60,144 nucleotides of DNA from a virus (IMGVR_UViG_3300025632_000016:1-60144); one strand, 5' to 3'. Shown: positions 22,124-48,207, numbered from the stretch's first letter. The notes: generated by a model from the sequence alone, not told the origin. Made by a program: numbers and translations.

Positions 22124-22377
22124 TGGCTACACCAAGAAAGGGAAAAGCAAAAGTTAAAATTACCTCCACTGGAAAGAAAGTAAGTTACGGTCAGGCAGGT
22201 AAAGCTAAGAAGGGTGGTTCTAGGGTAAAGGTAGGTACACCTAAAGGAGATAGTTATTGTGCAAGAAGTTTAGGTATAAAGAAAAAATTATCTAAGAAAA
22301 AACAAAACGACCCAAACACACCAAACAACTTATCACGCAAGAGGTGGAAGTGTTCGGGAGCAAAATCTAAAAAATAA
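22123..22377 (+). CDS. Small basic protein with SYCARS...RWKC motif
   Basis: KKVSYGQAG...DSYCARS...NNLSRKRWKC, a family common in aquatic phages. Confidence 0.75.
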   Translation: MATPRKGKAKVKITSTGKKVSYGQAGKAKKGGSRVKVGTPKGDSYCARSLGIKKKLSKKKQNDPNTPNNLSRKRWKCSGAKSKK

Positions 22378-22383
22378 AAAAAG

Positions 22384-22506
22384 ATGGCAAAAACATTTAA
22401 GATGCACAATATGTATAGCAAAACAGGCGTAAAGAAAGTAGCTAAGACAATGGCACAACATTTATCTTTAAAGAAAAAAGGATATACTCATACTAAAAAG
22501 AAATGA
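22384..22506 (+). CDS. Small basic protein, 40 aa
   Basis: Read by hand: MAKTFKMHNMYSKTGVKKVAKTMAQHLSLKKKGYTHTKKK. Confidence 0.7.
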   Translation: MAKTFKMHNMYSKTGVKKVAKTMAQHLSLKKKGYTHTKKK

Positions 22507-22618
22507 ATTGTAGGTTTATAGGTGCTAATTAATAATACGTTACCTTTGTAATTATACGTCTAAATATTTAAAGAAATCTGCAACATCTAGGAACAAAAGT
22601 TTGTTATAAAAAATAATT

Positions 22619-22729
22619 ATGGTTAAGAAAAATAAAGCTAAGTGTAAAACCAAGACTAAGGCTGTTACAAATAAGAAAAAAGGAACTACAAAAACTAAGG
22701 TTGTAAAAAGAGGTGCGAGAGGTTACTAA
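22619..22729 (+). CDS. Small lysine-rich peptide, 36 aa
   Basis: MVKKNKAKCKTKTKAVTNKKKGTTKTKVVKRGARGY; promoter TACCTTTG at 22541. Confidence 0.5.
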   Translation: MVKKNKAKCKTKTKAVTNKKKGTTKTKVVKRGARGY

Positions 22730-22753
22730 AAGTACTACTCCTAAGAAAAAGAA

Positions 22754-23161
22754 ATGAAACTACTAATTAAAAGATTTAGCCACGAAGAAAACCAAACACT
22801 AGGCTATGCAATCGTTTTTAACGAGAATAACGGGGTTCAATATACATTCAGTACGTTAGAGTTGCCTTGGAAGGAGAACGCTAAGAGGATAAGCTGTATT
22901 CCAGTGGGAGAGTATAAGGTAGTTAAGCGTTGGTCTGATAAATACAAAAGACATTTCCACGTTTTAGATGTACCTAATCGCTCTTATATTCTTTTACATA
23001 GCGGAAACTACAATATACACACATTAGGTTGTATTCTTTGCGGTAAAGAGCATTTAGATATTAATGGTGACGGAGAAAGAGACATAACATCATCTAAGGC
23101 TACAATGAAAAAACTTAATGAAATTCTTCCCGATGAATTTACTATGGTGATTGAGGGCTAA
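22754..23161 (+). CDS. DUF5675-type putative endolysin
   Basis: TLELPWKEN...SCIPVGEY...VPNRSYILLHSGN...TLGCILCG (HxGN...GC catalytic pattern). Confidence 0.8.
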   Translation: MKLLIKRFSHEENQTLGYAIVFNENNGVQYTFSTLELPWKENAKRISCIPVGEYKVVKRWSDKYKRHFHVLDVPNRSYILLHSGNYNIHTLGCILCGKEHLDINGDGERDITSSKATMKKLNEILPDEFTMVIEG

Positions 23162-23172
23162 TACGCAAAAGC

Positions 23173-23221
23173 GTTACACAAAACGTGTAATCCGTCACAA
23201 ATTTATCAAATATTTGTGACG
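23173..23221. terminator. Hairpins at the convergence of late and early transcription
   Basis: ttacac-aaaac-gtgtaa and gtcacaaat...atttgtgac inverted repeats between convergent genes. Confidence 0.5.
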
Positions 23222-23272
23222 AAGAAAAGCCTTTATTTAATCGTTAAATTTTCTAACCATACCACAATCACG

Positions 23273-23479
23273 TTACCCACCATTAGGCTTATCAGGTAAT
23301 CCCATCCAATATTTTACAGTACTTAGTTTAAATGTGTTTTGGTCATCATCGTGCCACACTTCACCAAACTCACTATCATTTTCAAGCCTTGATATTACAA
23401 TGTCTATATTATCAATAGGGTGTACTAATACTCTAATACCCTCTTTTGGTTTCTGTGTTTTTATATTAATCCATTTCAT
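23273..23479 (-). CDS. DUF551-like small protein
   Basis: MKWINIKTQKP...VLV...VKYWMGLPDKP signature. Confidence 0.75.
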   Translation of the reverse strand: MKWINIKTQKPKEGIRVLVHPIDNIDIVISRLENDSEFGEVWHDDDQNTFKLSTVKYWMGLPDKPNGG

Positions 23480-23514
23480 AATATTCTATTAGTCTATCTA
23501 AGTACTCTTTAGCT

Positions 23515-24135
23515 TTAGTATGTTTCTTTATTAAAAAGCTTGCGTATTGTGCTTGGTGCTACGTTATATTTTCTAGCTAATTCAGAAAAGTTTATTTCTT
23601 CTTTTTCTTTACCATTAAAAAACTCTAAAACCTCATCCAAAACTCCCTTTCCATAAAGAGTATAATCTCTATTTATAGCCTGAATTTTCCTAGTTGTGTA
23701 CCTGCAATTATGCGGCGAATAACCCAAAGAATTATCTATTCTGTCCAATGTTAATCCCTTTTTGTATCCGTTATCCAATGACCAATTTATAAAAGCTTCT
23801 GAGCTATCTGCCCATAAAGAGCAAACACCTCTTTTACTATAATATTCGTACTTCACATTTTTAGGATTATAACATCTATCTTTCATATTTAACCAAGTAG
23901 AATATAACGGATGCTTTCTTAGACCGTGAGTAATACTTTTACATTTATCACAGCCGACACCAACTCTTTTTCTAGTATAGTCACTAGTCTTTTTTACAAC
24001 TATATTTCCGCAATCGCAAGATGCTTTCCAATAATGACAAGCCTTACCGTGTTTATTTTTAGAAATGTATTCTTTATTTAATACCGTCAGAGTGCCTACT
24101 ATAAACCCTGTTAAATCCTTTGCTTTTCTTCCCAT
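23515..24135 (-). CDS. HNH-type homing endonuclease with C-terminal HTH
   Basis: DLTG...LTVL...CDCGN...WLNMKDRC...LTLDRIDNSLGYSPHNCRY; FSELARKYNVAPSTI. Confidence 0.85.
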   Translation of the reverse strand: MGRKAKDLTGFIVGTLTVLNKEYISKNKHGKACHYWKASCDCGNIVVKKTSDYTRKRVGVGCDKCKSITHGLRKHPLYSTWLNMKDRCYNPKNVKYEYYSKRGVCSLWADSSEAFINWSLDNGYKKGLTLDRIDNSLGYSPHNCRYTTRKIQAINRDYTLYGKGVLDEVLEFFNGKEKEEINFSELARKYNVAPSTIRKLFNKETY

Positions 24136-24359
24136 TCTATTAGTCTATTTAAATATTCTCTACATTTTTTCAAATCTTCCGCACCGTTCTTTTCTTTCCA
24201 TCGTCTAATGTACTTTAGGATATTACCCTCACAGAAACCTATATCGTTATCTAAGCAAAACTTTATAACATCGTTATCTGATTCGTAGTGCTTTGGCTTT
24301 ATTTTATCTTCACTCATCTGTTTTAATATTATGTTTTTTTCTGTATTTAATTTCCGCAA
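24111..24359 (-). CDS. DUF3310-like protein (likely start 24317)
   Basis: PKHY...FCEGNILKYIRRWKEKNGAEDLKKC signature. Confidence 0.85.
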   Translation of the reverse strand: MRKLNTEKNIILKQMSEDKIKPKHYESDNDVIKFCLDNDIGFCEGNILKYIRRWKEKNGAEDLKKCREYLNRLIEWEEKQRI

Positions 24360-24624
24360 TATAAAATGGAATATATTTATTATCAGGTCTATACTTAGAG
24401 TGCGGTATTACTCCATTATGCAATTCAATTCTATTTGCTATAATAAATTTTTCTTTCATAATCCTAAAAATATAATTGCAAACATAATAATCATTAGTAT
24501 TCCCGTTGCTACTTCTGCCGTGTATTTCTTCATTGTCTTTTTATTTTAGTTTAATAATCTCTATTATTTTTAGTACCCTGCAATATCAAAAGGCTATCGT
24601 GTTGATATTCATAATTTATTGTTT

Positions 24625-24885
24625 TTAAATAATTTCTAATTCTACTTCATCAACCAACCCTAAAAGCATTTCTAAGTTTCCTCTTGTTAGGGTTAGATAA
24701 GCATAGTCTTTAGTGTTTAAATGTACGCAACCGTCATTATGAAACTTACAATCTATAACGTCTAACTCTGCATCCACTATTTTAGCGGTAATAATTTCCC
24801 CTTCAATGATTAGCTTATCCCTTTCTGGGCAAAGAGCATCTTCAATATTAAATTCTTTCTTTTTCATAGTTTTAATTTGATACAA
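24625..24885 (-). CDS. Hypothetical protein (likely start 24867)
   Basis: ORF with a - strand promoter at 24883-24890. Confidence 0.6.
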   Translation of the reverse strand: MYQIKTMKKKEFNIEDALCPERDKLIIEGEIITAKIVDAELDVIDCKFHNDGCVHLNTKDYAYLTLTRGNLEMLLGLVDEVELEII

Positions 24886-24890
24886 ATATA

Positions 24891-24920
24891 AAAAGAGCCT
24901 CTACATAGCAAAGGCTCTTT
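24891..24920 (-). terminator. Intrinsic terminator
   Basis: aaagagcct...aggctcttt stem with A/T run. Confidence 0.6.
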
Positions 24921-24945
24921 CTGTTAAAAATATTTAAAAGGATTC

Positions 24946-26103
24946 TTAAAAGTTGTGTGTAAGCCTACTTATCTGTCCTAATTCTGGGTGATGTATAAAT
25001 GCTTCAATAGCAACCTTTGCCCCAAAGTAGCCCGAATTTTTGTGCCATAAATCTACTGCGCTAGGAGAACGTAGGTACTCAACAGTCATGCCTATAAAGT
25101 CCTTGCCGCTTCTGAACTTAAACATATCTTTATGGTGTATGTGATGTAAATAAGCATATCTGTATTCTGTTTCAGCCCACATTTGCTTCTCTTCGTGAGC
25201 GGCAAGATATGGTATTTGGTCTAGCTTGCACCCATCACCGTGTGAGAAAGACAGCATATTGACTCCATACTTAGCGTATTTTCTGTGTATATTACTAACG
25301 TCTAACGTTACGTTTTTATTATTATGAAAGTAGCAACTAACAGCATCTGCTAACATAAATCCACTCATATAATCGTGATTGCTCGGACAATGGATGACAT
25401 TAACGTGCGCTATTGTGGTAAGTCTTTGTATTATCTGACAATAAACAATTCTAGCTATCTTAAAGTTGTCATACCACATCCCATCTGTATCTTGTGGCGT
25501 TCCAGCGGTTGTCGTTCTCTTAGTGTTGTCGATATGGAGTATATCATTACCTATTACAAAGTAAACCATATCTATATTATACGGCTTAGACTTGTCTATC
25601 AGTGATTCACTTCCTTCAATTGCTCTGCTAATCGCTAAGTCTACATCGTAGTATTCACCCGTTCCTTGCATTGTGGCTAACTTACCTATATGTAAATCAG
25701 CTATATCTAAAATAAGACAATGAGCATCCTTTATATTCTTTCTCTTGTATTTCTTAACTTTAGGGGATAGTTTACTCATCTCTGTAATCATATCCTCTTT
25801 AATCAAATCGTAGTCTACAACCTCGTCTTTAAAGTCAACGTTCTTAACTAATGTAGATGTTCCCGTTTCAGAATCTTTTACCCAAGCCACCTTCCAAGAG
25901 TTAGCTGTTATATTGTTTCGGTGTAAGGACTCATCTATAATAGAATCTAACTTTCCGTTTCTCCTCTTAATATACTTCCTTAGAGCATCTACTTTACTAT
26001 ACTCAACATCTCCTAGTATTTCTCTTGCCATTTTACTCCAATCAGACCTACCAGAACCTAAAAGTCCATCTATTTTAGTGTCATATTTAAACCACTTACT
26101 CAT
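24946..26103 (-). CDS. Calcineurin-like metallophosphoesterase
   Basis: ADLHIGK, GNDILHID, SNHD, SHGD and HHIHH metal-binding motifs. Confidence 0.85.
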   Translation of the reverse strand: MSKWFKYDTKIDGLLGSGRSDWSKMAREILGDVEYSKVDALRKYIKRRNGKLDSIIDESLHRNNITANSWKVAWVKDSETGTSTLVKNVDFKDEVVDYDLIKEDMITEMSKLSPKVKKYKRKNIKDAHCLILDIADLHIGKLATMQGTGEYYDVDLAISRAIEGSESLIDKSKPYNIDMVYFVIGNDILHIDNTKRTTTAGTPQDTDGMWYDNFKIARIVYCQIIQRLTTIAHVNVIHCPSNHDYMSGFMLADAVSCYFHNNKNVTLDVSNIHRKYAKYGVNMLSFSHGDGCKLDQIPYLAAHEEKQMWAETEYRYAYLHHIHHKDMFKFRSGKDFIGMTVEYLRSPSAVDLWHKNSGYFGAKVAIEAFIHHPELGQISRLTHNF

Positions 26104-26134
26104 AACATTTGATTTTAGTTTTTACGAATATACT

Positions 26135-27004
26135 CTATTTTTTTATTTCTATATCCTGTAACCCTTTTGTTTTAAACATTTTGAGGTGGTTTCCGTCAAT
26201 AAAAGGGCAACTACTGCGAAATCCACAGACAGATTTACAGAACATATTACGCTCTCCTTTTTCATCTAATAGTTCTTTGTAGTCAGGGGTAAACATTCCC
26301 TTCATACCCATTTTTTCTACCTTTAATCTACCCTCAATCTCTAGTATTCTGCCTTCAGCGAACTCAATAGCCTCATCCATATCAGCCTTATTGAACTTAA
26401 TAACCTTTGGTTTGTCCCAAAATTGAAAGAACTCAAATATAAGCTGTTCGGGGTATTGTCCGTGTATTTGATGATAGCCATAAGCATAAACGTATAACTG
26501 TCTAGCCTTTTCTTTTACGTTTTTTCTTGTGAATCGCTTGCTTATTTTGTAATCCCTAATGGTTAAATTGCTCTTTCCATCACTATCAACGCTTACCCTA
26601 TCTACAAAGCCTTGAAATTTCTTGCCCGAAGGAAGGGTAAATTCTAGGTGTTCCTCCACCGAAACAGTTTCACCTAACAGCCAATTAGTATTCTCTTTAG
26701 TAAAGAAGGGAAGTGTTTTATTATAGTAATGTTCAGCGGCTTCTACTAGTTCACCTTCTTTATTGTAATATCCAAAAGGGTTATCTAATCCATCAACAGC
26801 ATCGTACCAGCTATTCTTAACGGCTTCTAAGCAATCCTCTTGCGTCATTTCGTCTTTAGCTGCGTGTTCCATTAGGTCGTGTTCAAATTTTCCCCCGACA
26901 TTCCATATGTTATCTTCACCTTTATTTTCTAGTACATAGTTTTGATAAAATGCAGCTAGGCAAGTGTAATTAACTCTACTCCAAGAGTATGTTGTTTCTT
27001 TCAT
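26135..27004 (-). CDS. PD-(D/E)XK (RecB/Cas4-like) exonuclease
   Basis: GFVDRV...IRDYK...QLYVYA; N-terminal Cys and C-terminal CxxxCxxxxxC. Confidence 0.85.
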   Translation of the reverse strand: MKETTYSWSRVNYTCLAAFYQNYVLENKGEDNIWNVGGKFEHDLMEHAAKDEMTQEDCLEAVKNSWYDAVDGLDNPFGYYNKEGELVEAAEHYYNKTLPFFTKENTNWLLGETVSVEEHLEFTLPSGKKFQGFVDRVSVDSDGKSNLTIRDYKISKRFTRKNVKEKARQLYVYAYGYHQIHGQYPEQLIFEFFQFWDKPKVIKFNKADMDEAIEFAEGRILEIEGRLKVEKMGMKGMFTPDYKELLDEKGERNMFCKSVCGFRSSCPFIDGNHLKMFKTKGLQDIEIKK

Positions 27005-27052
27005 ACTAAATCCTCCTTAATGTTTTCTATTATTGCTATTAGTTTCATATCT

Positions 27053-27451
27053 CTATCCTTTAATTAACCATTCTTTTTCGTAACTTTCCTTTGGGTTAGC
27101 GTGAATATATAAATGCCCTTCACGGCTGACTGCCATCCAAAGAGTAGAATCTAGTAATCTTTCTCCATTTCTTTTCATTTTGTGATGAATTTCCGTTGCA
27201 TCTAGGTTTGGATAAACTTCACACTTAGGGTTCTGCTCTAAAAATAATCTTCTTAAAATGGTGTAAGCTTGATTCATCCTAGCCCTTTTAGATGACACTT
27301 GCTTAATCTTTTGCCTTACTTTCTTGGTTTTTGTTTTAGGCTTGTATTTAGCGGAGCAATCTTTACAACCAAACTTTTTGGTAAAGTAATAACACATCTT
27401 ACCATCTTCTGTGTTGTTAGGGTCTTTACAGGGTTTCTTTTTGTTAATCAT
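27053..27451 (-). CDS. HNH-like nuclease
   Basis: CEV...ATEIHHK...WMAVSREGHLYIH; N-terminal Cys cluster. Confidence 0.7.
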   Translation of the reverse strand: MINKKKPCKDPNNTEDGKMCYYFTKKFGCKDCSAKYKPKTKTKKVRQKIKQVSSKRARMNQAYTILRRLFLEQNPKCEVYPNLDATEIHHKMKRNGERLLDSTLWMAVSREGHLYIHANPKESYEKEWLIKG

Positions 27452-27485
27452 TCAAACATATTTTTTCGTGCCTTAAAAATCCGTT

Positions 27486-27538
27486 ATCCAACAGTTGCTA
27501 AGGAAACATTAAAACGCTGGCTTAGCTTGGTGTTAACT
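27486..27538 (-). mobile_element. attC-like palindromic site 1
   Basis: - strand agtTAACaccaaGCTAAG...CTTAGCaactGTTggat; TAA is the stop codon of 27533..27808; ends in a perfect GTTRRRY. Confidence 0.6.
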
Positions 27539-27808
27539 TTTCTTCAACTCAAATATAGTGTCATCTAATTCCTTATCAACTATTTCATCAATCTTTTGTG
27601 ATAAATTAGTAATTACATCCTGACCTTCTACAAACACACCACCTACACTCACATCCTTTTCTAACTCTTTCATTAACTGATTGAGCAGCATCTTAGGCTT
27701 CTTATTGTACAGCTTAGTGCCTTTTATATCATCTAACACTTCTATGAAGCTTTGTCCGTGTAGGGCTAATCTAGCCCCTATTTTAAATAAGTCGTTATCT
27801 GATTTCAT
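27533..27808 (-). CDS. Hypothetical protein
   Basis: ORF coupled to neighbour. Confidence 0.65.
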   Translation of the reverse strand: MKSDNDLFKIGARLALHGQSFIEVLDDIKGTKLYNKKPKMLLNQLMKELEKDVSVGGVFVEGQDVITNLSQKIDEIVDKELDDTIFELKKS

Positions 27809-28155
27809 TATAATGTTTTAAAATATTCATTAACTATGTATCGCTTGAAATACATAAATACAGCATCCCTTAACACGCTACTCCCTTTTAACTTAATCGC
27901 TCTGTTAACTAATTCATCTATATTATCTATTCTATCTTGCCAGTATTTAGTCATTTGTTCGTTGGCTAATTCTTTATCTATCTCATATACCTCTACGAGT
28001 GAGTCTTTAGCGTATTCTAAGCCTTTTGACGGGTTATCAGCTTTCTTTGGTATCTTACCTTCAGTTGTTAATTCATTGTACGCTAATGAGCCTAAATCAA
28101 AGCAATGTCCGTTGCGCTTGAAGTAGTTGTATTCTCTTTGTGTGGCGGAAATCAT
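27808..28155 (-). CDS. Hypothetical protein
   Basis: ORF with TAATG coupling. Confidence 0.65.
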   Translation of the reverse strand: MISATQREYNYFKRNGHCFDLGSLAYNELTTEGKIPKKADNPSKGLEYAKDSLVEVYEIDKELANEQMTKYWQDRIDNIDELVNRAIKLKGSSVLRDAVFMYFKRYIVNEYFKTL

Positions 28156-28523
28156 TATAGGTATGCTGTGTTAAATTTTGGCTTATACTTTATAATCATC
28201 AATCTCTCTATTCTAAATATATCCTTTATGTTTTTATTTGCAATTTCAGCGCAAAACCATAATGCTTCATTAAAGTCAATATCATTACTATTATAATGTT
28301 CTGATATTCTTTTTTTTATACACTTACTCATACCTATATAAACTAACTCACCATCTTTAAATAAGTGGTATATTCCTAATGATTCTGGAATAACCCGTTT
28401 TAGGTCGCTGTTTATTATGTCTTTTATGTTTATTGGATAACCCACCTTCAAAGAGCCATTATAGAACGGATTAGAATACCTTATTTTATTATAATCTAAC
28501 CAATCCTTACCTATAAAATTCAT
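28155..28523 (-). CDS. GIY-YIG nuclease
   Basis: GIYHLF...LVYIGMS...RISEH...ERLMIIKYKPKFN. Confidence 0.85.
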   Translation of the reverse strand: MNFIGKDWLDYNKIRYSNPFYNGSLKVGYPINIKDIINSDLKRVIPESLGIYHLFKDGELVYIGMSKCIKKRISEHYNSNDIDFNEALWFCAEIANKNIKDIFRIERLMIIKYKPKFNTAYL

Positions 28524-28527
28524 AATA

Positions 28528-28977
28528 TTATTTCCCTTTTATAAATTGCTGTGATTGCATTTCATTCTTAACTACGCTTATTGTCTGCGTAAGAGAGCGT
28601 ATAATAGTATCATATACAGAATACCTATTACTTACTTCTTTGTATTCGTTTTCTAAAATAGATACTCCTTTAATTTCTGTTTCACAGTCTCTTTCTGCGT
28701 ATAACGTAGCTATTCTAGCCTTATCAGAACCCGTTAAGTCTTTTAAATATTCTATTTTCTTTTCGGTTAGGATTATTTTTAAGGCTGTTTTAGATTCGTT
28801 TAGGGCATTTCCCTTAGTGGTTTTAAGTTCCCCTAAATATGATAGTGATACAAGGTAATGGTTCTTCATAGCCTCTAACGTTTCAATAGGAACGGTATGA
28901 AGTTCTAGGGTATCTATATCTCCAAAGATTTCCGTAGTCCTCTTTTCGTGTGTCGTTAATGTTAATTCGTAATTCAT
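28528..28977 (-). CDS. Helical hypothetical protein
   Basis: 149-aa coiled-coil-like ORF in the replication operon. Confidence 0.6.
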   Translation of the reverse strand: MNYELTLTTHEKRTTEIFGDIDTLELHTVPIETLEAMKNHYLVSLSYLGELKTTKGNALNESKTALKIILTEKKIEYLKDLTGSDKARIATLYAERDCETEIKGVSILENEYKEVSNRYSVYDTIIRSLTQTISVVKNEMQSQQFIKGK

Positions 28978-29426
28978 TTTTTATTGTATCTCTTTACTAA
29001 TCTAGTAGCTTTAGTTTCCATTCCGCAATTTTTAAGCATATCACAATACTTAATTCTTAATACAGTGTCTGTCTCTAGCAAATTATTTATAGCCTTAACT
29101 GAATGGGATGTTGTGGAGTGGTCTTTATCAAACAAATCGCCTATCATTCTTAATGAAGCATTTGTATTAAGTCTCAGGCAGTGCATTATCATTTGCCTAG
29201 TTTCTACAATCTCTGCCTTTCTAGTCTTAGTTTTAGTTAATAACTTATCTCTGTCTATATGGTGATGATTTTCAAAGTAAGAAAGAAGTCTGTTCTTTAG
29301 TTCTAGGTAATCTTTTTTTGCGTTCACCCTTTCCGCCTCAACACCAATCTTAAGTAACACTTGCTCGAATGGAGATAGCGACTTAGGAGTATTAATAACC
29401 TCAAACCAATCATTATTACTTATCAT
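28974..29426 (-). CDS. DnaA C-terminal (domain IV)-like HTH protein
   Basis: RKAEIVETRQMIMH...SLRMIGDLFDKDHSTTSHSVKAI. Confidence 0.85.
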   Translation of the reverse strand: MISNNDWFEVINTPKSLSPFEQVLLKIGVEAERVNAKKDYLELKNRLLSYFENHHHIDRDKLLTKTKTRKAEIVETRQMIMHCLRLNTNASLRMIGDLFDKDHSTTSHSVKAINNLLETDTVLRIKYCDMLKNCGMETKATRLVKRYNKK

Positions 29427-29626
29427 ACTATTTCATTTTTACTCATTAAATCTAACTTTCTATCTATACAGTTCTCCCATATATTCTGAGCCACTTCATA
29501 CAATAATCTCTCTGTTGCAATAGGCTCATTAGAGTTAAGTATAATGTCATTAAGAAACACCACCTTATCCCTGCTAGTCCAAGTGTTAAATAGTAAATCT
29601 CTTTCTTCTTCTGTTATTTGTTCCAT
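29423..29626 (-). CDS. Hypothetical protein
   Basis: ORF with ATGA coupling. Confidence 0.6.
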   Translation of the reverse strand: MEQITEEERDLLFNTWTSRDKVVFLNDIILNSNEPIATERLLYEVAQNIWENCIDRKLDLMSKNEIV

Positions 29627-29670
29627 TGTATTTTTAAGTTTTTAATATTCCGCACATTAAAACGTGCGTT

Positions 29671-29728
29671 AACTAACAGCCGCTAAGAAACATCGCTTCG
29701 CTTTACGTTTCTTAGCTTGGTGTTATAC
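29671..29728 (-). mobile_element. attC-like palindromic site 2
   Basis: - strand gtaTAACaccaaGCTAAGAAAC...GTTTCTTAGCggctGTTagtt; TAA is the stop codon of 29723..29950; shares TAACACCAAGCTAAG with site 1. Confidence 0.6.
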
Positions 29729-29950
29729 TTCCTTTAAAATGTCTTTAGTCTGCTGAAAGAACATCTCTACTCCATCTGCTTTACCTATTTCATAACCAAA
29801 CTCTAGGAGTATATTAACTGTGTCATCTCCTAATTGCTCTCTTAAAGAGTCTACTACCACCCTCTGTTGCGGGGATAGTTTACTTTCTATTTCTTCTTTC
29901 ATAATGTTTGTTTTTGTAAAAGTAAAAAGACAATGCAGAAGAAGGCTCAA
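29723..29950 (-). CDS. Hypothetical protein (likely start 29902)
   Basis: MKEEIESKLSPQQRVVVD... Confidence 0.55.
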   Translation of the reverse strand: MSLLLHCLFTFTKTNIMKEEIESKLSPQQRVVVDSLREQLGDDTVNILLEFGYEIGKADGVEMFFQQTKDILKEV

Positions 29951-29993
29951 TTAGAACCTCCTCTGCTTTGCTTGTGTAATTGTTAATCATAGA

Positions 29994-30344
29994 TTAAAAT
30001 GGTAATCCAGAATCTATTGGCGCTGCCGTTTGCTTCTCGAACTCCTTGTTAGGCGTACTTGCTCCACTTTGACCATCAGCCTTGAAAACTTTCCACGCAA
30101 TTAGATTCACATAGTACTTACCTTTGTACTCACTGCCATTAATATTAAATGACACATCTACATCCTGACCAACCTTATTGTACTTTAGGAAATTATCTAC
30201 CTTATCCTTTAGCACTTCAAACTTAACGTCTTGTGGGTAAGTATCATTCGTGGTAATCACAAATTCTACCTTTTGAAATCCAGAGTCAAACGTTTGCTTT
30301 TCTCCGATTAATTTAATCTTTCCTGTTAATTTTAAATCACTCAT
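29994..30344 (-). CDS. DUF3127 single-stranded DNA-binding protein
   Basis: GFQKVEFVI...YPQDVKFE...[12 protein letters not shown]...YYVNLIAWK; SSB-like C-terminal tail ending GLPF. Confidence 0.85.
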
Positions 30345-30360
30345 CTTATTATTTATTTAA

Positions 30361-30888
30361 TTATTTACTTGTTAATAGTTTTTCTACCGCTTTACTTACG
30401 GTGAATGTTTGTTTAATTACTTCTAATGTAGTTTTACCTTCGCTTAACGCTTTCTTTGCCCCTTCATAGCGTGGGTGAGATTCTGTTAACGCTTCTTTCT
30501 TAGGTGGCGTTTTAGTTTCCTGCTCTCCGCAAGCGTCAATATCCTTATCTGTTATTAATCCTAATGCAGCAGACAGCGAGTACCTTCTGTAATATGTTAT
30601 AGCACTTCCTAGTACTTGAAACGTATTCATTTTAGCTAACTGTACTTCTTGCTGAATATGAACAGTAGACTCAATAGATTCTCCGCTTGTAACGTGGAAT
30701 ATAACGGTCTTTAAATCCTCTCCGTTTAGTAATTGGGTAAACCCTAGCTTATGCTTTTTCATTAATGGGTTAATCACTTTGAATATTGCCGAAAGGTCTG
30801 CGTATGAATACCCAAATCCCTGAGTTCCTTTATGGATTGGCGGAACTTCTTGCTGAAAATCAGCTAATGCTTTGTATATATTTTTCAT
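30361..30888 (-). CDS. erf: ERF-family single-strand annealing protein
   Basis: YSYADL...GSAITYYRRYSLSAALGL...DIDA. Confidence 0.9.
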   Translation of the reverse strand: MKNIYKALADFQQEVPPIHKGTQGFGYSYADLSAIFKVINPLMKKHKLGFTQLLNGEDLKTVIFHVTSGESIESTVHIQQEVQLAKMNTFQVLGSAITYYRRYSLSAALGLITDKDIDACGEQETKTPPKKEALTESHPRYEGAKKALSEGKTTLEVIKQTFTVSKAVEKLLTSK

Positions 30889-31025
30889 TCTTCTAGTTTT
30901 AATTCATCATTATAATCATCTGCTCTATCGGCAGCTTCGTTTTCCTCTTCTTCACTATCAATTGTATTTCCAAATACATCCTCGTCATCGTAAGGATTAG
31001 ACAGCTTGTAGTCATCGTAATTCAT
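30885..31025 (-). CDS. Very acidic 46-aa protein
   Basis: Read by hand: MNYDDYKLSNPYDDEDVFGNTIDSEEEENEAADRADDYNDELKLEE; ATGA overlap with erf. Confidence 0.7.
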   Translation of the reverse strand: MNYDDYKLSNPYDDEDVFGNTIDSEEEENEAADRADDYNDELKLEE

Positions 31026-31079
31026 TTCTCTTTAATTAAATGTTCAATTGCTTTCTTTCTTTTCTCTGTAAACTCACTG

Positions 31080-31304
31080 TTAATGTAGCTGTGATGCCTT
31101 GTCATTACTTCCAGTAGCTGCTCTAGCTGATGCCTCGATAGCTTGTTTAAGCTTTGCATCTTCAATCCTAAGTCTCTCCAAGTACGGTATTTCATTTGTC
31201 ATTTCTCTGTATTCTGCTTCTTGTGCTTTGCGATAGAAGTATTCATCATCCATTCCATCGTAGCCAGAATTAAATTGCTCTATGTTTCTTTTAGTTAAGC
31301 TCAT
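31080..31304 (-). CDS. Hypothetical protein
   Basis: ORF with a promoter at 31321-31328. Confidence 0.6.
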   Translation of the reverse strand: MSLTKRNIEQFNSGYDGMDDEYFYRKAQEAEYREMTNEIPYLERLRIEDAKLKQAIEASARAATGSNDKASQLH

Positions 31305-31376
31305 ATCTCTAAATTTTACTCAAATATATTATTTAACTTTCTGATTGACAAGCTTTTTAACATTTATTAATGTAAT

Positions 31377-31616
31377 CTAAATAGTGTACTCATTTAACAT
31401 TGATTCCAAGTAGCTCAATGCTTCCTTTTTATACTCATCTGGAGTGGGCATTAATTTCAGTAATTTTATTTTAATCTTAAGGTCATTTACTACTGATTCA
31501 TTAGCTATTTCTATAAACTTTTTGTTTGTTTCGTCATCCTTAAGCGCCCTCTTCCATGCGGCTGAATACACTGGTAGGATATTTTTATCGTAATGTATTT
31601 TTGTTAATTTTTTCAT
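31377..31616 (-). CDS. Hypothetical protein
   Basis: ORF downstream of the primase-helicase gene. Confidence 0.6.
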   Translation of the reverse strand: MKKLTKIHYDKNILPVYSAAWKRALKDDETNKKFIEIANESVVNDLKIKIKLLKLMPTPDEYKKEALSYLESMLNEYTI

Positions 31617-31628
31617 AATTATTTGTTT

Positions 31629-33599
31629 TTAAAATGGGGCTTCGCTAAACTCATCATCGAATGAATCGTTTGTAGGCATAGAACTTATTCTTTCTTTAGC
31701 CTCAGATAATGTTTCTGGCTTTTTAAATCCCATAGTTCCGTTGTCTTCGTGCCACTTCCTTATGGGGTTAACTCCATTTATAGTAAACTCACACATATTC
31801 TTCTCTAAAAGCATTTGTATTGGGTTATCTCTCTCCGTTGGCTTCCCCCCAGTTTCACTTTCTCTTTCTTTATCAACATGAAATTCAGTGATAAACCTAA
31901 TTAATCCCTCAGCTTTTGTTTTTCTATGAAGCACAATTCCTTGGTCTGCCCTATTACTCCACTTGCCACCTCCCTCAACATCATCGACCCAAGGGCATAT
32001 AAGGTTTCCATCATCATCTCTTTTTCTTCTAGCCTCTGTATTTGTGTGTGCATTTAGATATAATGATACTCCCGTTCTTTCAGTAAAGTCTAGTATTTCT
32101 GATGCCATCCTATAATCATAATCGTGACCATTTTCCTTCGGCTTCTGAGCCTTATTAAACCCTGAGTATGGGTCTGCCACTATAAAGTCAATTTCTTTTT
32201 CTTCTGAAAGCTTATATGATAGCTTAAGTAGTTTAGGTATATCATTAATAAATCCGCCTCTTGCTTTTATAATTATAAAATGCTCATTAACCCATCTTTT
32301 AGCTAAGTCAAATTCATCTTGAGTCATTTTATCTAACGGCCTACACATATAAAACTCCATTAACTTTCTCTTTGTAAACCCAGAAGAGTTCTCTTTCGTT
32401 ACAACAGCGCCCTTCCAATTATGATAAACAGATGGCAGGCACATTTTATAAAGAATAGCGGTTGTTTTCCCAATGTTTGAATGCCCAACTATCACGCAAA
32501 ACTTACCCCTTTTAAATCTAAAAAATTCATCCATCTCTCTGCATCCAGTAGAGAGGCCTAGTTCTAATGTACCCTCTCTTACGTCTTGCAAGTATTTATC
32601 ATCCTCTATACTGTCTGATATATGCTCAGAAACACTTGATATTTCACTATCTTGGTTTTCATACTGCTCTGTTGGGCTTAGTTCTTTCTTTTGCTCACCG
32701 TATCCTTTTTGATATAAATCTTTTGCTGCTGCTGAGTAATCCCCATTATGATTTAGTACAGCATAAACACCAAATGGCGGATAAGCCTTCTCTGGCTCAA
32801 ACTGAGTACTGCTACTAAACGCCTTAAATAATTTTCTATCTATTAAATAGTTACCGCTGTGCAATGCGGTGGTATCTCCCGCTCGCTTTAAGTAAATCCT
32901 ACTTGAAGTTGTCTTTACGTCAGACCAACCGTGAGCGTAAAGTTCCGATAAACCATCTTCTCTGTCGTTATAATCATCCCAAGGGGTTTTTCCAGAAACA
33001 TTCATTGTTGACTTAGGGATGTGAACTTCTTTTATCTCCTCATCAAATGTTCTTGCGCACGATAGGATAACATCTCTCTCACTTGTCGATATGGTAGGTA
33101 TTTCTGAAAACTTACCCTGTATTACTTCGTACCCTTTACTTGGGAATGATGCTATGTAGCCTCCCTCGCCTCTCGTTTCTATTAAAACTTTCCACTTCTC
33201 TCGCTTTATAGTTAACTCATCACCTGTAGCTTCCCTTCGTGCTAATTTTTGATTACCTTGTATTTCTTCACAACGATATATCCAATGATAGCCGCCAGAA
33301 GGCGTTTTAAGTATCATTAAGCGGTTATATAAGCCACTTGCATTATCATTTAATAGTCTAGTGTACCTATCGTATAAATCTCCGCTTATATCGTACTTCA
33401 AATCAATATCAATAACCTCCATATTACCCGATATTTTACCACAAATTAATCCCAACGCCTCTGAATTTATACTTTGAGGTATTCTAAATTCGTGCTGCCA
33501 CTTAGACCAAGAACCTTCTGCGGGTATTTTCTTATTAGTAAGACCTAATACATTTATACCGCTATCTAAAAATCTTTTAACTAAACTTTCTTGTATCAT
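31629..33599 (-). CDS. Prim-Pol primase fused to DnaB-like (SF4) helicase
   Basis: VIDID, TPSGGYH and IETRGEGGYI (Prim-Pol); GHSNIGKT Walker A, FIVADPY and GGGKWSNRAD (helicase). Confidence 0.9.
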   Translation of the reverse strand: MIQESLVKRFLDSGINVLGLTNKKIPAEGSWSKWQHEFRIPQSINSEALGLICGKISGNMEVIDIDLKYDISGDLYDRYTRLLNDNASGLYNRLMILKTPSGGYHWIYRCEEIQGNQKLARREATGDELTIKREKWKVLIETRGEGGYIASFPSKGYEVIQGKFSEIPTISTSERDVILSCARTFDEEIKEVHIPKSTMNVSGKTPWDDYNDREDGLSELYAHGWSDVKTTSSRIYLKRAGDTTALHSGNYLIDRKLFKAFSSSTQFEPEKAYPPFGVYAVLNHNGDYSAAAKDLYQKGYGEQKKELSPTEQYENQDSEISSVSEHISDSIEDDKYLQDVREGTLELGLSTGCREMDEFFRFKRGKFCVIVGHSNIGKTTAILYKMCLPSVYHNWKGAVVTKENSSGFTKRKLMEFYMCRPLDKMTQDEFDLAKRWVNEHFIIIKARGGFINDIPKLLKLSYKLSEEKEIDFIVADPYSGFNKAQKPKENGHDYDYRMASEILDFTERTGVSLYLNAHTNTEARRKRDDDGNLICPWVDDVEGGGKWSNRADQGIVLHRKTKAEGLIRFITEFHVDKERESETGGKPTERDNPIQMLLEKNMCEFTINGVNPIRKWHEDNGTMGFKKPETLSEAKERISSMPTNDSFDDEFSEAPF

Positions 33600-34411
33600 T
33601 TATAACTTTTTTCTGCTCTACATAGGGTAGAGAAATAAGTATTTGGATTACTCTGCTTCATAGCAACATTCCAAAGATGCTCTAATACATCTAAACTAAT
33701 ACCATTCGCTTCTGGTATTTGTGGAATTTTAACATATTCAACTTCTTCTTCTGTCGGAACATAATCCCGCCACCCTTCATTAGCAAAGAATGACCTTCCC
33801 GCTTTTATATATTTCTCTTCGGTTTTTTCATCGGCTACTTTTTTTGCGTATTTAATAACAGATGATTTTATATCCGCTCTTTCTTTCTCCCTTGCTTTAG
33901 CGTTATAGTATTTCTTAGCTACTAGTTTATCTTTCTTACGAGGGTAAAGCGACCAAACATCTTCAAAATCAGTTTGCTCATCTTTTTGTTTTATATGTAC
34001 TTTGTTATTATAAGTACTTTGTAGTTGTTGGTTAGCCGTTGACGGGTGAACCGTTGACGGAAAACCCGCATCGGTGTCAATCTCTTTGGTAGCAACGGGT
34101 TCGTCGTAAAATAGATAATTCTTACCCTTAAATCTGCCGCTATCATCAGTAACCATATTTGTACTAATTAAGTACCCTTCACTTTCTAGTTCTTTAAATA
34201 TAGAGTTAAGTGCATCCCTTCCAATACCAAATTCTTTCATAACAAAAGATTTGTGTAAAATCCAGTCATCAGGTAAGCTAAGTATGTAACATAAAAACCC
34301 CTTGGCCTTAAAAGAAAGCGTTTTATTTTGAACCACATCGTTATGCACTATAAGGAATTTTTCCTTCGGCTTAGAGCGAGTTCTCTTTAATAGTTCAGTA
34401 TTGTTGCTCAT
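33596..34411 (-). CDS. Replication initiator with N-terminal HTH
   Basis: LSFKAKGFLCYILSLPDDW...GRDALNSIFKELESEGY; C-terminal FEDVWSLYPRKKDK...YIK. Confidence 0.8.
   Translation of the reverse strand: MSNNTELLKRTRSKPKEKFLIVHNDVVQNKTLSFKAKGFLCYILSLPDDWILHKSFVMKEFGIGRDALNSIFKELESEGYLISTNMVTDDSGRFKGKNYLFYDEPVATKEIDTDAGFPSTVHPSTANQQLQSTYNNKVHIKQKDEQTDFEDVWSLYPRKKDKLVAKKYYNAKAREKERADIKSSVIKYAKKVADEKTEEKYIKAGRSFFANEGWRDYVPTEEEVEYVKIPQIPEANGISLDVLEHLWNVAMKQSNPNTYFSTLCRAEKSYK
34036..34074. repeat. Iteron-like repeats inside the initiator gene (candidate origin)
   Basis: ccgttgacgg at 34036 and 34051, degenerate ccgcatcgg at 34066 (15-bp period), next to an AT-rich tract. Confidence 0.6.
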
Positions 34412-34509
34412 AATAATAAAGTCGGCAAGACCTAGCGGGAGCTACACCATCGAAACGGATACCGCTAAATCTGCCTAAATAAGTTGTTGGATTGTGTAGC
34501 TCTAATCCT
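34412..34509 (-). ncRNA. Structured 5' leader of the initiator gene (pseudoknot-like)
   Basis: Hairpin arms at 34424-34438 and 34462-34475; loop segment 34439-34447 is complementary to 34494-34502; promoter at 34514-34521. Confidence 0.55.
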
Positions 34510-34527
34510 ATTGCAAATATAGGTAAA

Positions 34528-34941
34528 TTAACCCCAAGTCCTATGCTCTTCAGCAATACTTTCTAAGCCATCGTATTCACTTATAATCCAATCAATATCA
34601 TCTGGAACATCTACGATTTTTAATTCAGCACAAGAACCGAATGATTTACTACCAAGACTTCTAACTACTTCTATTAAGTCCTTATCAGGCCTAACCGAAT
34701 AATCATCCTTAATATTAAATAGTACCCCATCTTTGTATATGCAATATCCGTAAGGATGAGCCATATATCCGTCTTCTAAATCAATATACCCATTAAATTC
34801 CCCTTCCCATCCTTGTTTGTCTCCGTAATATTTATGCGGATTATATTTCTCTATACACTTAGCATTTCTTTTAACTAATTCTAATAAAGCAGGTGTTGAA
34901 ATTCCAAATCCGCCAAAACGAGTGTTTATAACTAATTCCAT
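34528..34941 (-). CDS. Conserved hypothetical phage protein
   Basis: VINTRFGGFGIS...LIEVVRSLG...LKIVDVPDD...EYDGLE motif pattern. Confidence 0.7.
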   Translation of the reverse strand: MELVINTRFGGFGISTPALLELVKRNAKCIEKYNPHKYYGDKQGWEGEFNGYIDLEDGYMAHPYGYCIYKDGVLFNIKDDYSVRPDKDLIEVVRSLGSKSFGSCAELKIVDVPDDIDWIISEYDGLESIAEEHRTWG

Positions 34942-35294: not shown

Positions 35295-35310
35295 TCAGCG
35301 TTATCCGCAA

Positions 35311-38907: not shown

Positions 38908-38916
38908 TTATGCATC

Positions 38917-43425: not shown

Positions 43426-43459
43426 AATTGAAACATTAAAACGCACCTTATGCAATGCG

Positions 43460-43678
43460 TTAATTCTTTATCTCTGGCTTCAACAAATCAGTAAGTAATT
43501 TACTGTATTCCACTTGCTGATACAGTAATTCATTTTCTTCATCACAGAAGGATAATTCTGCTTCATAATATTCTAGCATTGATATAAGGTATTCCATAAC
43601 CGTTCTAGTAGGGTCTGTATAATCTTCTGTGTTTATATTTATTTGTTCTCCGTTGTTTAAAAATAGTGAAAATTTCAT
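43460..43678 (-). CDS. Small acidic hypothetical protein
   Basis: Promoter at 43683; stop codon overlaps an attC-like half site (TAACgcattgcataaggtgcgttttaatg). Confidence 0.6.
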   Translation of the reverse strand: MKFSLFLNNGEQININTEDYTDPTRTVMEYLISMLEYYEAELSFCDEENELLYQQVEYSKLLTDLLKPEIKN

Positions 43679-48084: not shown

Positions 48085-48207
48085 AGAAATTGAATTTATC
48101 GAAAATATACTGGCACTAACCAAGTAATTTTTATTGTTTCTAACAAAAGGCTCAGTCACGTTTTAATGTGACTTTAGCTAAAGTTATAAAATGCTTATCT
48201 TTGTAGC

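What the first reader, a model, noticed from the sequence alone, without database searches (positions are those of the whole stretch)
27486..29728. Integron attC-like sites at gene ends in a phage with no integrase
Seen: two imperfect palindromes of 53 and 58 bp (27486-27538, 29671-29728). On the coding strand both begin TAACACCAAGCTAAG and end CTTAGC-n4-GTT, and in both the TAA is the stop codon of the preceding gene. Site 1 ends in a perfect GTTRRRY. Established: attC sites have an AAC...GTT core, inner inverted L boxes and a variable loop, and often overlap cassette stop codons. Inference: the early region is assembled or shuffled by an attC-type cassette recombination system whose recombinase is supplied by the host or another element. 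Six genes lie between the two sites.
Basis: partly seen in the sequence, partly recalled or inferred. Interest (0 to 1): 0.75.

Follow-up and report, generated by a model that had tools for sequence, protein, structure and literature searches.

The report
Portable gene-end hairpins in Flavobacteriia phages
The two sites are copies of a conserved, movable hairpin that sits right after stop codons in a group of marine Bacteroidota phages; in outline it resembles an integron site, but it fails the integron tests and more likely acts in the phage's messenger RNA.

Summary
Both sites exist as described on the minus (coding) strand. They belong to a real family: 40 distinct copies in phage and metagenome contigs and two in the isolated Maribacter phage Panino.

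The layout is TAACA / CCAA / GCTAAG / variable upper stem / YTTAGC / RRC / TGTTR. The upper stem covaries and carries an invariant G.U pair. It is capped by UUYA or by a GCGAAGC-type mini-hairpin.

Copies are intergenic and lie on the same strand as an upstream ORF. In 17 of 40 contexts the element's TAA is that ORF's stop codon. Between close relatives the element is present or absent as a discrete unit.

The attC reading holds only in outline: a paired AAC...GTT, an unpaired spacer and a variable tip. It fails these tests:
- The 7-nt R-box consensus is at chance level.
- The G.T-rich strand is the coding strand.
- Six genes lie between the two sites.
- Breakpoints are not at G|TT.
- No integron integrase was found.
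- No bacterial genome carries the full element.

My best reading (0.45) is a portable RNA-level hairpin cassette, comparable in its evolutionary role to the PeSL cassettes of T4-type phages. A new single-strand DNA mobile hairpin remains possible.

The parts
29674..29725 (-). Site 2. Class-1 hairpin element from the T of TAAC to the A of TGTTA. The TAA at 29723-29725 is the stop codon of ORF 29723..29950.
   Evidence: (64.1 bits over 29670-29728).
29651..29668 (-). Second hairpin just after site 2: a 5-bp stem around the loop GTTTTAAT. The same cap motif is found inside many class-1 elements.
   Evidence: The same module follows the element in G001 at 1382 and 55568.
29626..29722 (-). 97-nt unit (element, second hairpin and A-rich leader). 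It is absent from relative G003, where the stop and start codons overlap as TAATG.
   Evidence: alignment; joint 29625->29723 in one contig each of runs X4 and X10.
27489..27535 (-). Site 1. Class-1 hairpin element. The TAA at 27533-27535 is the stop codon of ORF 27533..27808. The upper stem is capped by CGTTTTAATG.
   Evidence: 60.1 bits over 27485-27538. Absent from relative G001, where the two genes overlap.
27453..27488 (-). Spacer between site 1 and the next start codon. It carries a TAACGG...AGGCACGAAA motif shared with a second hairpin family, and a TATGTTTG box (27453-27460).
48138..48190 (+). Divergent third copy with the same layout (TAACA..GCTCAG..CGTTTTAATG..CTTTAGC..GTTA) in a plus-strand gene block. 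A TATCTTTG box follows a few bases downstream.
   Evidence: 11.9 bits, E 1.2, not significant alone. (6-bp stem around GTTTTAAT).
43428..43462 (-). Decayed remnant after the stop of ORF 43460..43678. The homologous place in G001 (38394-38446) holds a full element plus a second hairpin. The window copy looks like a deletion between the two GTTTTAATG caps.
27533..29626 (-). The six ORFs between the sites: 91, 115, 122 (weak GIY-YIG/T5orf172 match), 149, 150 (DnaA C-terminal helix-turn-helix domain) and 67 aa.
29723..29950 (-). ORF of 75 aa whose stop codon opens site 2. No family match.

Best explanation
The two sites are copies of a portable hairpin cassette, here called the class-1 element. 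It is 52-63 nt long and specific to phages of Flavobacteriia-type hosts.

Shown:
- The anatomy on the coding strand is a 5-bp outer clamp TAACA/TGTTR, an internal loop CCAA over RRC, a 6-bp inner stem GCTAAG/YTTAGC, often a one-base bulge on the 3' arm, and a covarying upper stem.
- The upper stem is closed by C-G, G.U and U-A, and is capped by UUYA or by a GCGAAGC-type mini-hairpin.
- The element lies between genes on the same strand as an upstream ORF. It starts at or just after that ORF's stop codon.
- It comes and goes as a discrete unit between phages that are otherwise 90-96% identical over the aligned blocks.

Inferred:
- It folds in the sense strand, most simply in the polycistronic early mRNA.
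- There a conserved host or phage factor reads the invariant unpaired and wobble positions. The likely roles are marking a processing site, protecting the 3' end, or attenuating read-through.
- Because its arms are identical in many genomes, it also acts as a patch of homology at gene junctions. The phage's own Erf, SSB and exonuclease recombination genes lie in the same block and could use such patches. ORFs would then be gained, lost or swapped next to it, as with the PeSL cassettes of T4-type phages.
- It is not an integron recombination site.
For: Family:
- A scan with the model built from 15 copies gave 57 matches, 40 of them distinct, over 59 sources.
- Two copies lie in the isolated Maribacter phage Panino, at 58.8 and 57.8 bits.

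Structure:
- There are 24 distinct variable regions with 17 different basal stems.
- The basal 5 nt pair with their own 3' partner over at least 4 bp in 16 of 24 cases. Paired with the partner of a different-type element, this happens in 73 of 512 cases.
- On 17 aligned short-form copies, one upper-stem pair shows GC 7, CG 5, AU 2 and UA 1. No shuffle out of 500 reached the observed covariation score.

Sense strand:
- The G.U pair is invariant in 17 of 17 copies, and a second G.U occurs in 10 of 17.
- With RNA energies the coding strand folds better than its complement in 33 of 40 copies (p 8e-7). With DNA energies there is no difference (18 against 21).

Context:
- In 17 of 40 contexts the TAA is the stop codon of an upstream ORF of at least 40 codons.
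- In 13 more contexts such an ORF ends 6-33 nt upstream.
- The next ATG-started ORF begins 20-47 nt after the element in 16 of the 30 contexts with a listed downstream ORF.
- The Bacteroidota -7 box TAnnTTTG follows within 110 nt in 15 of 39 contexts, against 7.5% of random windows.
- In Panino both copies are followed by a TATCTTTG box ahead of the next start codon.

Discrete unit:
- The 97-nt unit is absent in G003, and element-less contigs occur in runs X4 and X10.
- Site 1 is absent in G001.
- G001 has elements where the window has none or only a remnant.
- The same element body sits between unrelated flanks in 5 pairs, which I count as about 3 independent cases.

Other:
- Erf, a DUF3127 single-strand DNA binding protein and two exonucleases lie in the same gene block.
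- The variable distance between the half-sites (16-28 nt) excludes a fixed double-strand operator.
Against: - No RNA end, cleavage or termination was seen. The only RNA-library data are contigs, and one of them (258 nt, depth 2.1) runs straight through site 2. That argues against a strong terminator and shows nothing about processing.
- No U-run follows the hairpin. The phage has canonical hairpin plus T-run terminators elsewhere.
- No binding factor was found. No protein family is shared by more than 7 of 40 contexts.
- The sense-strand bias, G.T pairs, bulge and GAA-type cap are also what Nivina 2016 describes for the recombining strand of attC sites. They therefore fit a single-strand DNA substrate as well.
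- The GCGAAGC cap is, from recall, better known as a very stable DNA mini-hairpin.
- Element junctions are no more often breakpoints than other junctions: 4 of 4 against 17 of 40 and 16 of 40.
- The start exactly at the stop codon is not required by an RNA role.
- The invariance of the two arms is partly built into the searches, which used them as the query.
Confidence: 0.45

Rival explanations
1. The element is a small selfish mobile hairpin that moves as single-stranded DNA, in the manner of REP or IS200/IS605-derived elements. An unidentified host or phage enzyme would insert it just 3' of a TAA. It would then survive mainly where that TAA is a stop codon.
For: - It is a discrete unit with sharp ends. 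The same body, from TAAC to GTTA plus at most 5 nt, lies between unrelated flanks.
- One clean filled-versus-empty pair shows an insertion right after TAA with no duplication beyond a 2-nt ambiguity.
- The TAA is the stop codon in 17 of 40 contexts.
- A decayed copy exists, as does a hybrid joined right after a TAA.
- Turnover among close relatives is high.
- The folding strand carries conserved G.T pairs and a GCGAAGC cap.
Against: - No Y1 transposase (PF01797) in any of 5 records.
- No serine recombinase in any of 5 records.
- No tyrosine recombinase in 7 of 8 records.
- Only one clean insertion event was found.
- Copy number is low, at 1-5 per genome.
- The full pattern is absent from representative bacterial genomes, so no host reservoir is visible.
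- Five or six copies begin with CAAC or GAC instead of TAAC.
Confidence: 0.2
2. The sites are true integron-type attC sites. A host integron integrase would recombine the folded sites and so shuffle cassettes in the early region.
For: - The outline matches: a paired AAC...GTT, an unpaired spacer, an inner inverted repeat and a variable tip.
- Gene gain and loss occur next to the sites.
- Qi et al. 2023 (PMC9892861) report attC clusters without an integrase in virulent phages, including Polaribacter phage P12002L. One of that phage's two predicted sites recombined with attI1 under IntI1.
- A hairpin of the same layout and cap lies in P12002L between methyltransferase genes gp35 and gp36. A near copy of it is fused to a class-1 left arm in locus L015.
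Against: - R'' fits RYYYAAC in 5 of 34 copies and R' fits GTTRRRY in 3 of 34. Both fit in 0 of 34, and pairing outside TAAC/GTTA is at chance level.
- The strand with the G.T pairs, and with the bulge opposite the AAC, is the coding strand. This is the reverse of cassette polarity (Nivina 2016).
- The element body travels with the downstream DNA. Breakpoints lie at the 5' edge or beyond the second hairpin, not at G|TT.
- Six ORFs lie between the two sites.
- No IntI was found. Panino's 185-aa recombinase is about 30 kb away and gives only weak, below-cutoff matches to generic Xer-type tyrosine recombinase models.
- The full pattern occurs in none of the representative bacterial genomes.
- The P12002L match to the model is not significant (12.4 bits, E 0.75).
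Confidence: 0.08
3. The sites are ordinary intrinsic transcription terminators and nothing more.
For: - They lie at gene ends on the same strand as the upstream ORF.
- In Panino and at window 48138-48190 the element is followed by a TAnnTTTG promoter-like box.
- The -7 box is enriched downstream.
Against: - No T-run follows the stem. Neither site is among the terminator-like sites.
- The phage uses canonical hairpin plus T-run terminators elsewhere, for example at 24922-24890.
- 26 conserved bases, an invariant G.U and a conserved cap across unrelated contexts are not needed for a terminator.
- Site 2 has no promoter box downstream although six more genes follow it.
- A contig from an RNA library reads through site 2 (weak evidence).
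Confidence: 0.1
4. The sites are double-strand DNA operators for a dimeric regulator, similar to the 'stoperators' of mycobacteriophage L5 that overlap stop codons (recalled from memory).
For: The half-sites GCTAAG and CTTAGC are symmetric. The sites sit at stop codons, with few copies per genome.
Against: - The spacing between half-sites varies from 16 to 28 nt, and the spacer keeps its base pairing through compensatory changes. This points to an extruded fold rather than a fixed duplex site.
- The wobble pairs are strand-specific.
Confidence: 0.04

Closest known systems
PeSL (promoter-early stem-loop) cassettes of T4-type phages: Arbiol et al. 2010, PMC2839356 (abstract and section 13 read); Comeau et al. 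2014, PMC4122927 (abstract read)
   Same: - Both are small conserved intergenic cassettes that run from the upstream stop codon towards the downstream start codon.
- Both contain a stem-loop with G-T pairs.
- Both sit among small genes of unknown function.
- Both mark insertions, deletions and replacements between close relatives.
- In both cases the phage's own recombination is the supposed driver.
   Different: - PeSLs are defined by a sigma-70 promoter plus a stem that terminates transcription, and there are about 50 per genome.
- Here the conserved part is the hairpin itself, with a fixed clamp, internal loop and cap.
- A promoter-like box follows in only 15 of 39 contexts, and not at site 2.
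- There are 1-5 copies per genome.
- No terminator activity or mini-circles have been shown.
Integron attC sites, and attC clusters without an integrase (CALINs) reported in virulent phages: Nivina et al. 2016, PMC5027507 (passages read); Qi et al. 2023, PMC9892861 (abstract, sections 5, 6, 13 and passages read)
   Same: - Both are hairpins of similar size with a paired AAC...GTT at the base, an unpaired spacer, an inner inverted repeat and a variable tip that often holds GAA.
- In both, one strand is richer in G.T pairs.
- Both lie at gene ends.
- A look-alike hairpin lies among methyltransferase genes in P12002L, a phage for which Qi et al. report a CALIN encoding two predicted methyltransferases.
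   Different: - The 7-nt R-box consensus is not kept.
- The favoured strand is the coding strand.
- The body travels with the downstream gene.
- Six genes lie between the sites.
- No IntI was found, and no relatives occur in bacterial genomes.
- The cap and a wobble pair are conserved in sequence, which attC recognition does not need.
RNase III processing hairpins between the genes of phage T7 (recalled from memory; no call or paper read here)
   Same: Both are irregular hairpins with an internal loop, lie between genes of a polycistronic early transcript, are related to each other in sequence, and would leave a protective 3' stem on the upstream message.
   Different: Nothing here shows cleavage. 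The paired length (15-18 bp with an internal loop) is at the low end for RNase III. The host enzyme of Flavobacteriia has not been studied in this respect.
REP/BIME palindromes and the hairpin ends of IS200/IS605 elements (recalled from memory)
   Same: Both are short strand-specific hairpins with conserved unpaired bases. Insertion next to a short fixed word without a target duplication fits the one clean case.
   Different: No Y1 (HUH) enzyme was found in any of 5 records. Copy number is low. The element is phage-borne and not seen in bacterial chromosomes.

Membership tests
Integron attC site | Conserved AAC and GTT triplets that pair at the base of the hairpin | tested here: met
   TAACA pairs with TGTTR in 15 of 15 and 17 of 17 aligned copies. 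The AAC/GTT columns are invariant or nearly so.
Integron attC site | R'' = RYYYAAC and R' = GTTRRRY, forming a 7-bp R box (Nivina 2016, PMC5027507) | tested here: not met
   R'' fits in 5 of 34 distinct copies, R' in 3 of 34, and both together in 0 of 34. Of the three positions outside TAAC/GTTA, a mean of about 1.3 can pair, which is near chance.
Integron attC site | An unpaired central spacer between the R and L boxes, and a variable terminal structure | tested here: met
   The internal loop is CCAA over RRC. The variable region spans 16-28 nt.
Integron attC site | The recombining (bottom) strand is antisense to the cassette ORF, is the more stable strand, is richer in G:T pairs, and carries the extrahelical bases on the arm opposite its AAC | tested here: not met
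   Here the strand with these properties is the coding strand. G.U is invariant in 17 of 17 copies and a second G.U occurs in 10 of 17. The coding strand is more stable in 33 of 40 copies with RNA energies. The one-base bulge is on the 3' arm of the coding strand.
Integron attC site | Array of cassettes with one ORF per attC, and crossovers at G|TT, so that each attC travels with its upstream ORF | tested here: not met
   Six ORFs lie between the sites. The body and right flank stay together while the left flank changes in 4 pairs and in the comparison of the window with G001. The 97-nt indel ends at the next start codon, not at GTT.
Integron attC site | An integron integrase in the element or host, and similar attC sites in host arrays | tested here: not met
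   PF00589 found nothing in G000-G005 and P12002L. Panino has one 185-aa tyrosine recombinase with only weak, below-cutoff matches to generic Xer-type models. The full pattern gave no match in the representative-genome collection. The hosts themselves are unknown for the metagenomic phages.
Integron attC site | Recognised by the attC covariance model or HattCI, and recombined by IntI | not testable with these tools
   IntegronFinder and its attC model are not available here.
PeSL-type mobile regulatory cassette | Conserved intergenic motif running from the upstream stop codon to the downstream start codon, with a stem-loop | tested here: met
PeSL-type mobile regulatory cassette | Contains a host-type early promoter | tested here: inconclusive
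   TAnnTTTG lies within 110 nt downstream in 15 of 39 contexts, against 7.5% of random windows. It is present after site 1 but too close to the ATG, and it is absent after site 2.
PeSL-type mobile regulatory cassette | Marks indels and replacements between close relatives | tested here: met
   However, 17 of 40 and 16 of 40 early-region junctions also carry breakpoints.
PeSL-type mobile regulatory cassette | The stem terminates transcription, and mini-circles form between copies | not testable with these tools
   Only assembled contigs were available. No back-joint was listed among the four runs.
Intrinsic terminator | G+C-rich stem followed by a run of T | tested here: not met
   Neither site is among the 5 terminator-like sites found in 22000-36000. 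The bases after the stem are GGATAACGG at site 1 and GTTAACGCAC at site 2.
IS200/IS605- or REP-type hairpin element | A Y1 (HUH) transposase in the element or genome | tested here: not met
   PF01797 found nothing in 5 records. Host genomes are unknown.
Any Rfam family | Match to a curated covariance model | tested here: not met
   No match at gathering score over the whole window. In 27400-29800 at E <= 5, the only hit was an unrelated weak SraG match at 27762-27838.

The most novel reading that the evidence does not exclude
The element is a new kind of single-strand DNA mobile hairpin in virulent Flavobacteriia phages. It would resemble an attC site in architecture but be recombined on the coding strand at TAA|C, so that it lands on stop codons. 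It would need no integron integrase and would shuffle small early genes as 'hairpin plus downstream ORF' units. The attC clusters reported in phages such as P12002L would then be members or cousins of this phage-borne system rather than strays from bacterial integrons.
Probability: 0.2. Interest if true: 0.85.

Novelty: new variant of a known kind. Interest (0 to 1): 0.6.

Why it matters
If the family is an RNA-level cassette, it gives Bacteroidota phages a defined and portable regulatory hairpin. Their gene regulation is little known. An isolated phage-host pair (Maribacter phage Panino) is available in which to test it.

It would also extend the idea of mobile regulatory cassettes as seams of mosaicism beyond T4-type phages.

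The family bears on a published claim as well. Hairpins of this architecture have the outline that attC finders look for. Some attC clusters reported in virulent phages may therefore be phage hairpins of this kind rather than integron parts.

If instead the hairpin moves as DNA, it would be a new mobile element with an unknown enzyme.

Tried and rejected
- **Joint 27510->29705.** At first sight this joint (skips 2194) looks like a deletion between the two sites. Only 21 letters lie on one side, all inside the shared left arm. The 7 letters between the sides reproduce the cap of a relative's site 1 (as in L022 and L100). I reject it as evidence of excision.
- **RNA run X19.** Three low-depth contigs were laid. 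Contigs cannot show RNA ends or strand.
- **Rfam.** No relevant match.
- **Shared neighbouring protein.** No family occurs in more than 7 of 40 contexts, and those 7 are close relatives of the window.
- **Paralogy of the two upstream ORFs.** None.
- **TAAC as a general stop context.** 8 of 47 TAA stops are followed by C, which equals the C content of 16.9%.
- **DNA search of 50,697 phage records with 26000-31000.** Only an Erf gene match was found.
- **Search of the same records with the 66-nt element.** Only Panino is a true match. The other six records are short chance matches inside genes.
- **P12002L with the model.** 12.4 bits, E 0.75, no better than noise hits. The likeness rests on layout and on the bridge sequence in L015.
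- **Bacterial genomes, looser pattern.** 10 loci were found, which is about what chance predicts by my own rough estimate. Two Flavobacteriia matches lie inside ORFs of 964 and 1230 aa. The two hairpin-like ones are in MAG contigs and lack the clamp, or lie antisense to both neighbouring ORFs.
- **Text search for the 12-mer and its complement.** 11 papers hold it; the 10 listed are all unrelated eukaryotic work.
Full report
**What is at the coordinates**

The window is a phage record of 60,144 bases whose first 126 bases repeat at the end, so it is a circular assembly overlap. Genes from about 23.2 to 44.0 kb run on the minus strand and form the replication and recombination block:
- an Erf annealing protein at 30361-30888
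- a DUF3127 single-strand DNA binding protein at 29994-30344
- a primase-polymerase/helicase at 31629-33599
- a replication initiator at 33596-34411
- two exonucleases at 24946-27004

Terminase, portal and virion genes run on the plus strand.

The shared 15-mer starts with the TAA stop codon of two unrelated ORFs. Six ORFs lie between the sites. Six-frame searches found no tyrosine recombinase, serine recombinase or Y1 transposase.

**The sites belong to a family**

- An exact scan of viral contigs for the 15-mer gave 45 matches. Of these, 22 also carry the right arm at hairpin distance, which the scan did not require.
- Gapped patterns added loci from viral contigs and metagenomes.
- A covariance model built from 15 copies then found 57 matches, 40 of them distinct, in 59 sources.
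- In the window it finds the two sites (64.1 and 60.1 bits), which were in its training set. It also finds one divergent look-alike at 48138-48190 on the plus strand (11.9 bits, not significant alone).
- Two full copies lie in the isolated Maribacter phage Panino, whose host is a member of the Flavobacteriaceae.
- The invariance of the two arms is partly built into these searches. The features below are not.

**Structure**

The consensus on the coding strand has these parts:
- an outer clamp, TAACA pairing with TGTTR
- an internal loop, CCAA opposite RRC
- an inner stem, GCTAAG pairing with YTTAGC
- often one bulged base on the 3' arm
- an upper stem
- a cap that is UUYA (as in CGTTTYAATG) or a small extra hairpin such as GCGAAGC

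The upper stem covaries. There are 24 distinct variable regions with 17 different basal stems. Own partners pair over at least 4 bp in 16 of 24 cases, against 73 of 512 cross-pairings between different types. On 17 short-form copies one pair shows four Watson-Crick types, and no shuffle out of 500 reached the observed covariation score.

A G.U pair in the upper stem is invariant (17 of 17). The top pair of the inner stem is G.U in 10 of 17 copies. On the complementary strand these pairs would be C-A mismatches.

With RNA energies the coding strand folds better than its complement in 33 of 40 distinct copies. With DNA energies there is no difference, 18 against 21.

The spacing between the half-sites varies from 16 to 28 nt. 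This rules out a fixed double-strand operator.

**Context**

- In 17 of 40 distinct contexts the element's TAA is the stop codon of an ORF of at least 40 codons. In 13 more, such an ORF ends 6-33 nt upstream.
- The next ORF starts 20-47 nt after the element in 16 of the 30 contexts with a listed downstream ORF.
- The copies in Panino and in the window follow the local gene direction on either strand.
- The Bacteroidota -7 box TAnnTTTG follows within 110 nt in 15 of 39 contexts, against 7.5% of random windows. It follows both Panino copies and the divergent third copy, but not site 2.
- No T-run follows the stem, although the phage has canonical hairpin plus T-run terminators that abut promoter boxes elsewhere.
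- TAAC is not a general stop context: 8 of 47 TAA stops are followed by C, equal to the base composition.

**Turnover and mosaicism**

Two relatives were compared: G001 (65,958 bases) and G003 (50,739 bases). They are 76-100% identical to the window over aligned blocks, and mostly 88-97% over the long blocks.

- *Site 2.* G003 lacks exactly 97 nt, comprising the element, the neighbouring GTTTTAAT hairpin and the A-rich leader. The stop and start codons overlap there as TAATG. Contigs with the same 97-nt skip occur in two runs from different studies, and one of those runs also holds a contig with the element. G001 has about 760 extra bases between the upstream stop codon and the element.
- *Site 1.* G001 lacks it and the two genes overlap there. 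G003 has 958 extra bases just upstream of its copy.
- *Other places.* G001 has further copies where the window has nothing, or where it has a remnant that looks like a deletion between two cap repeats.
- *Pairs of contexts.* Among 528 pairs of parsable contexts, 4 share body and right flank but differ in the left flank right up to the T of TAAC. Five share only the body plus 3-5 nt, which is about three independent cases.

The element is therefore a discrete, portable unit.

It is not a special hot spot, however. In the early region 17 of 40 gene junctions against G001, and 16 of 40 against G003, carry an alignment break. The two element junctions do so in both comparisons.

**Enzymes and hosts**

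- PF00589 matched none of G000-G005 or P12002L.
- Panino has one catalytic-domain-only tyrosine recombinase of 185 aa, about 30 kb from either copy. It gives only weak, below-cutoff matches to generic Xer-type models. Its authors found no integration (PMC11590407, passages read).
- No protein family is shared by more than 7 of 40 contexts.
- The full two-arm pattern is absent from the representative-genome collection.
- A looser pattern gave 10 loci, about the chance expectation. The two checked Flavobacteriia hits lie inside long ORFs.

**Comparison with attC**

From Nivina et al. 2016 (passages read), an attC site has these features:
- the paired triplets AAC and GTT inside R boxes RYYYAAC and GTTRRRY
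- an unpaired central spacer
- extrahelical bases on the arm opposite the cleaved AAC
- a variable tip, often GAA
- a bottom strand that is more stable and richer in G:T pairs
- cleavage between A and C, so that each attC travels with its upstream ORF

The class-1 element has the paired triplets, a spacer and a variable tip. It fails the rest:
- The R-box consensus is at chance level.
- The strand with bottom-strand properties is the coding strand.
- The body travels with the downstream DNA.
- There is neither an integrase nor a bacterial reservoir.

Qi et al. 2023 report attC clusters without an integrase in virulent phages, including P12002L. One of that phage's two predicted sites recombined under IntI1.

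P12002L has a hairpin with the same clamp, inner stem and CGTTTTAATG cap between methyltransferase genes gp35 and gp36. A near copy of it is fused to a class-1 left arm in L015. The model score in P12002L is not significant. I could not check whether this is their site, because the supplements are closed.

**Reading**

Shown:
- The element is a conserved, strand-specific, covarying hairpin family.
- It sits at gene ends and is portable.
- It is confined to phages as far as these scans reach.

Inferred:
- It acts in the sense strand, most simply in the mRNA, as a factor-recognised processing, 3'-end or attenuation hairpin.
- Its identical arms serve the phage's own annealing recombination as seams, as proposed for PeSLs (Arbiol 2010, section 13 read).

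Every strand-specific feature would also suit a single-strand DNA substrate. The start exactly on the stop codon and the sharp unit ends fit a mobile element better than an RNA role. I therefore put 0.45 on the RNA cassette, 0.2 on a new DNA mobile hairpin, 0.1 on a plain terminator, 0.08 on a true attC site and 0.04 on a duplex operator. The remainder is unassigned.

Noticed in passing
window 28155-28523 (-): The 122-aa ORF with weak GIY-YIG/T5orf172 matches is missing from one contig of run X4 (joint 28153->28530, skipping 376 bases). This looks like a free-standing homing-endonuclease gene that is present or absent in the population.
   Followed up: partly
G001 214-266 and 48617-48704; G003 44444-44501; L102 (P12002L) 38035-38090 and 38879-38936 (-); window 27453-27488 (-): This is a second family of gene-end hairpins. 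They also start at a TAAC stop and close with GTGTTA or ATTGTTA. They have a long GTATAT...ATATAC stem and a TTGAGGYACGAAA-like loop. Part of the motif follows window site 1.
   Followed up: partly
window 43690, 43388, 40137 (-); 24922-24883 (-); about 48570-48611, 57420-57456, 58640-58678 (+): Several early genes have a TAnnTTTG box whose first base lies 12 nt before the ATG, which suggests leaderless messages. Canonical hairpin plus T-run terminators directly abut TAnnTTTG boxes, forming terminator-promoter composites.
   Followed up: no
window 41914-42546 (-): A 210-aa ORF matches the histidyl-tRNA synthetase core (PF13393, E 5e-27). It is a truncated HisRS/HisZ-like protein in a phage early region.
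   Followed up: no
window 1-126 and 60016-60141; 19718-20025; 9944-17497: There is a 126-nt terminal direct repeat from circular assembly, and 60-nt tandem repeats inside ORF 19645-20826. A 2517-aa ORF has only one weak PHROG match.
   Followed up: no
L108 1498-2055 (-), which is Panino 71797-72354: A virulent phage carries a 185-aa tyrosine recombinase that consists of the catalytic domain only, next to an exonuclease gene. Its authors saw no integration (PMC11590407).
   Followed up: partly
L015 2699-2772 (-): This is a hybrid element. A class-1 left arm and the start of its upper stem are joined, right after a TAA, to a P12002L-type hairpin.
   Followed up: partly
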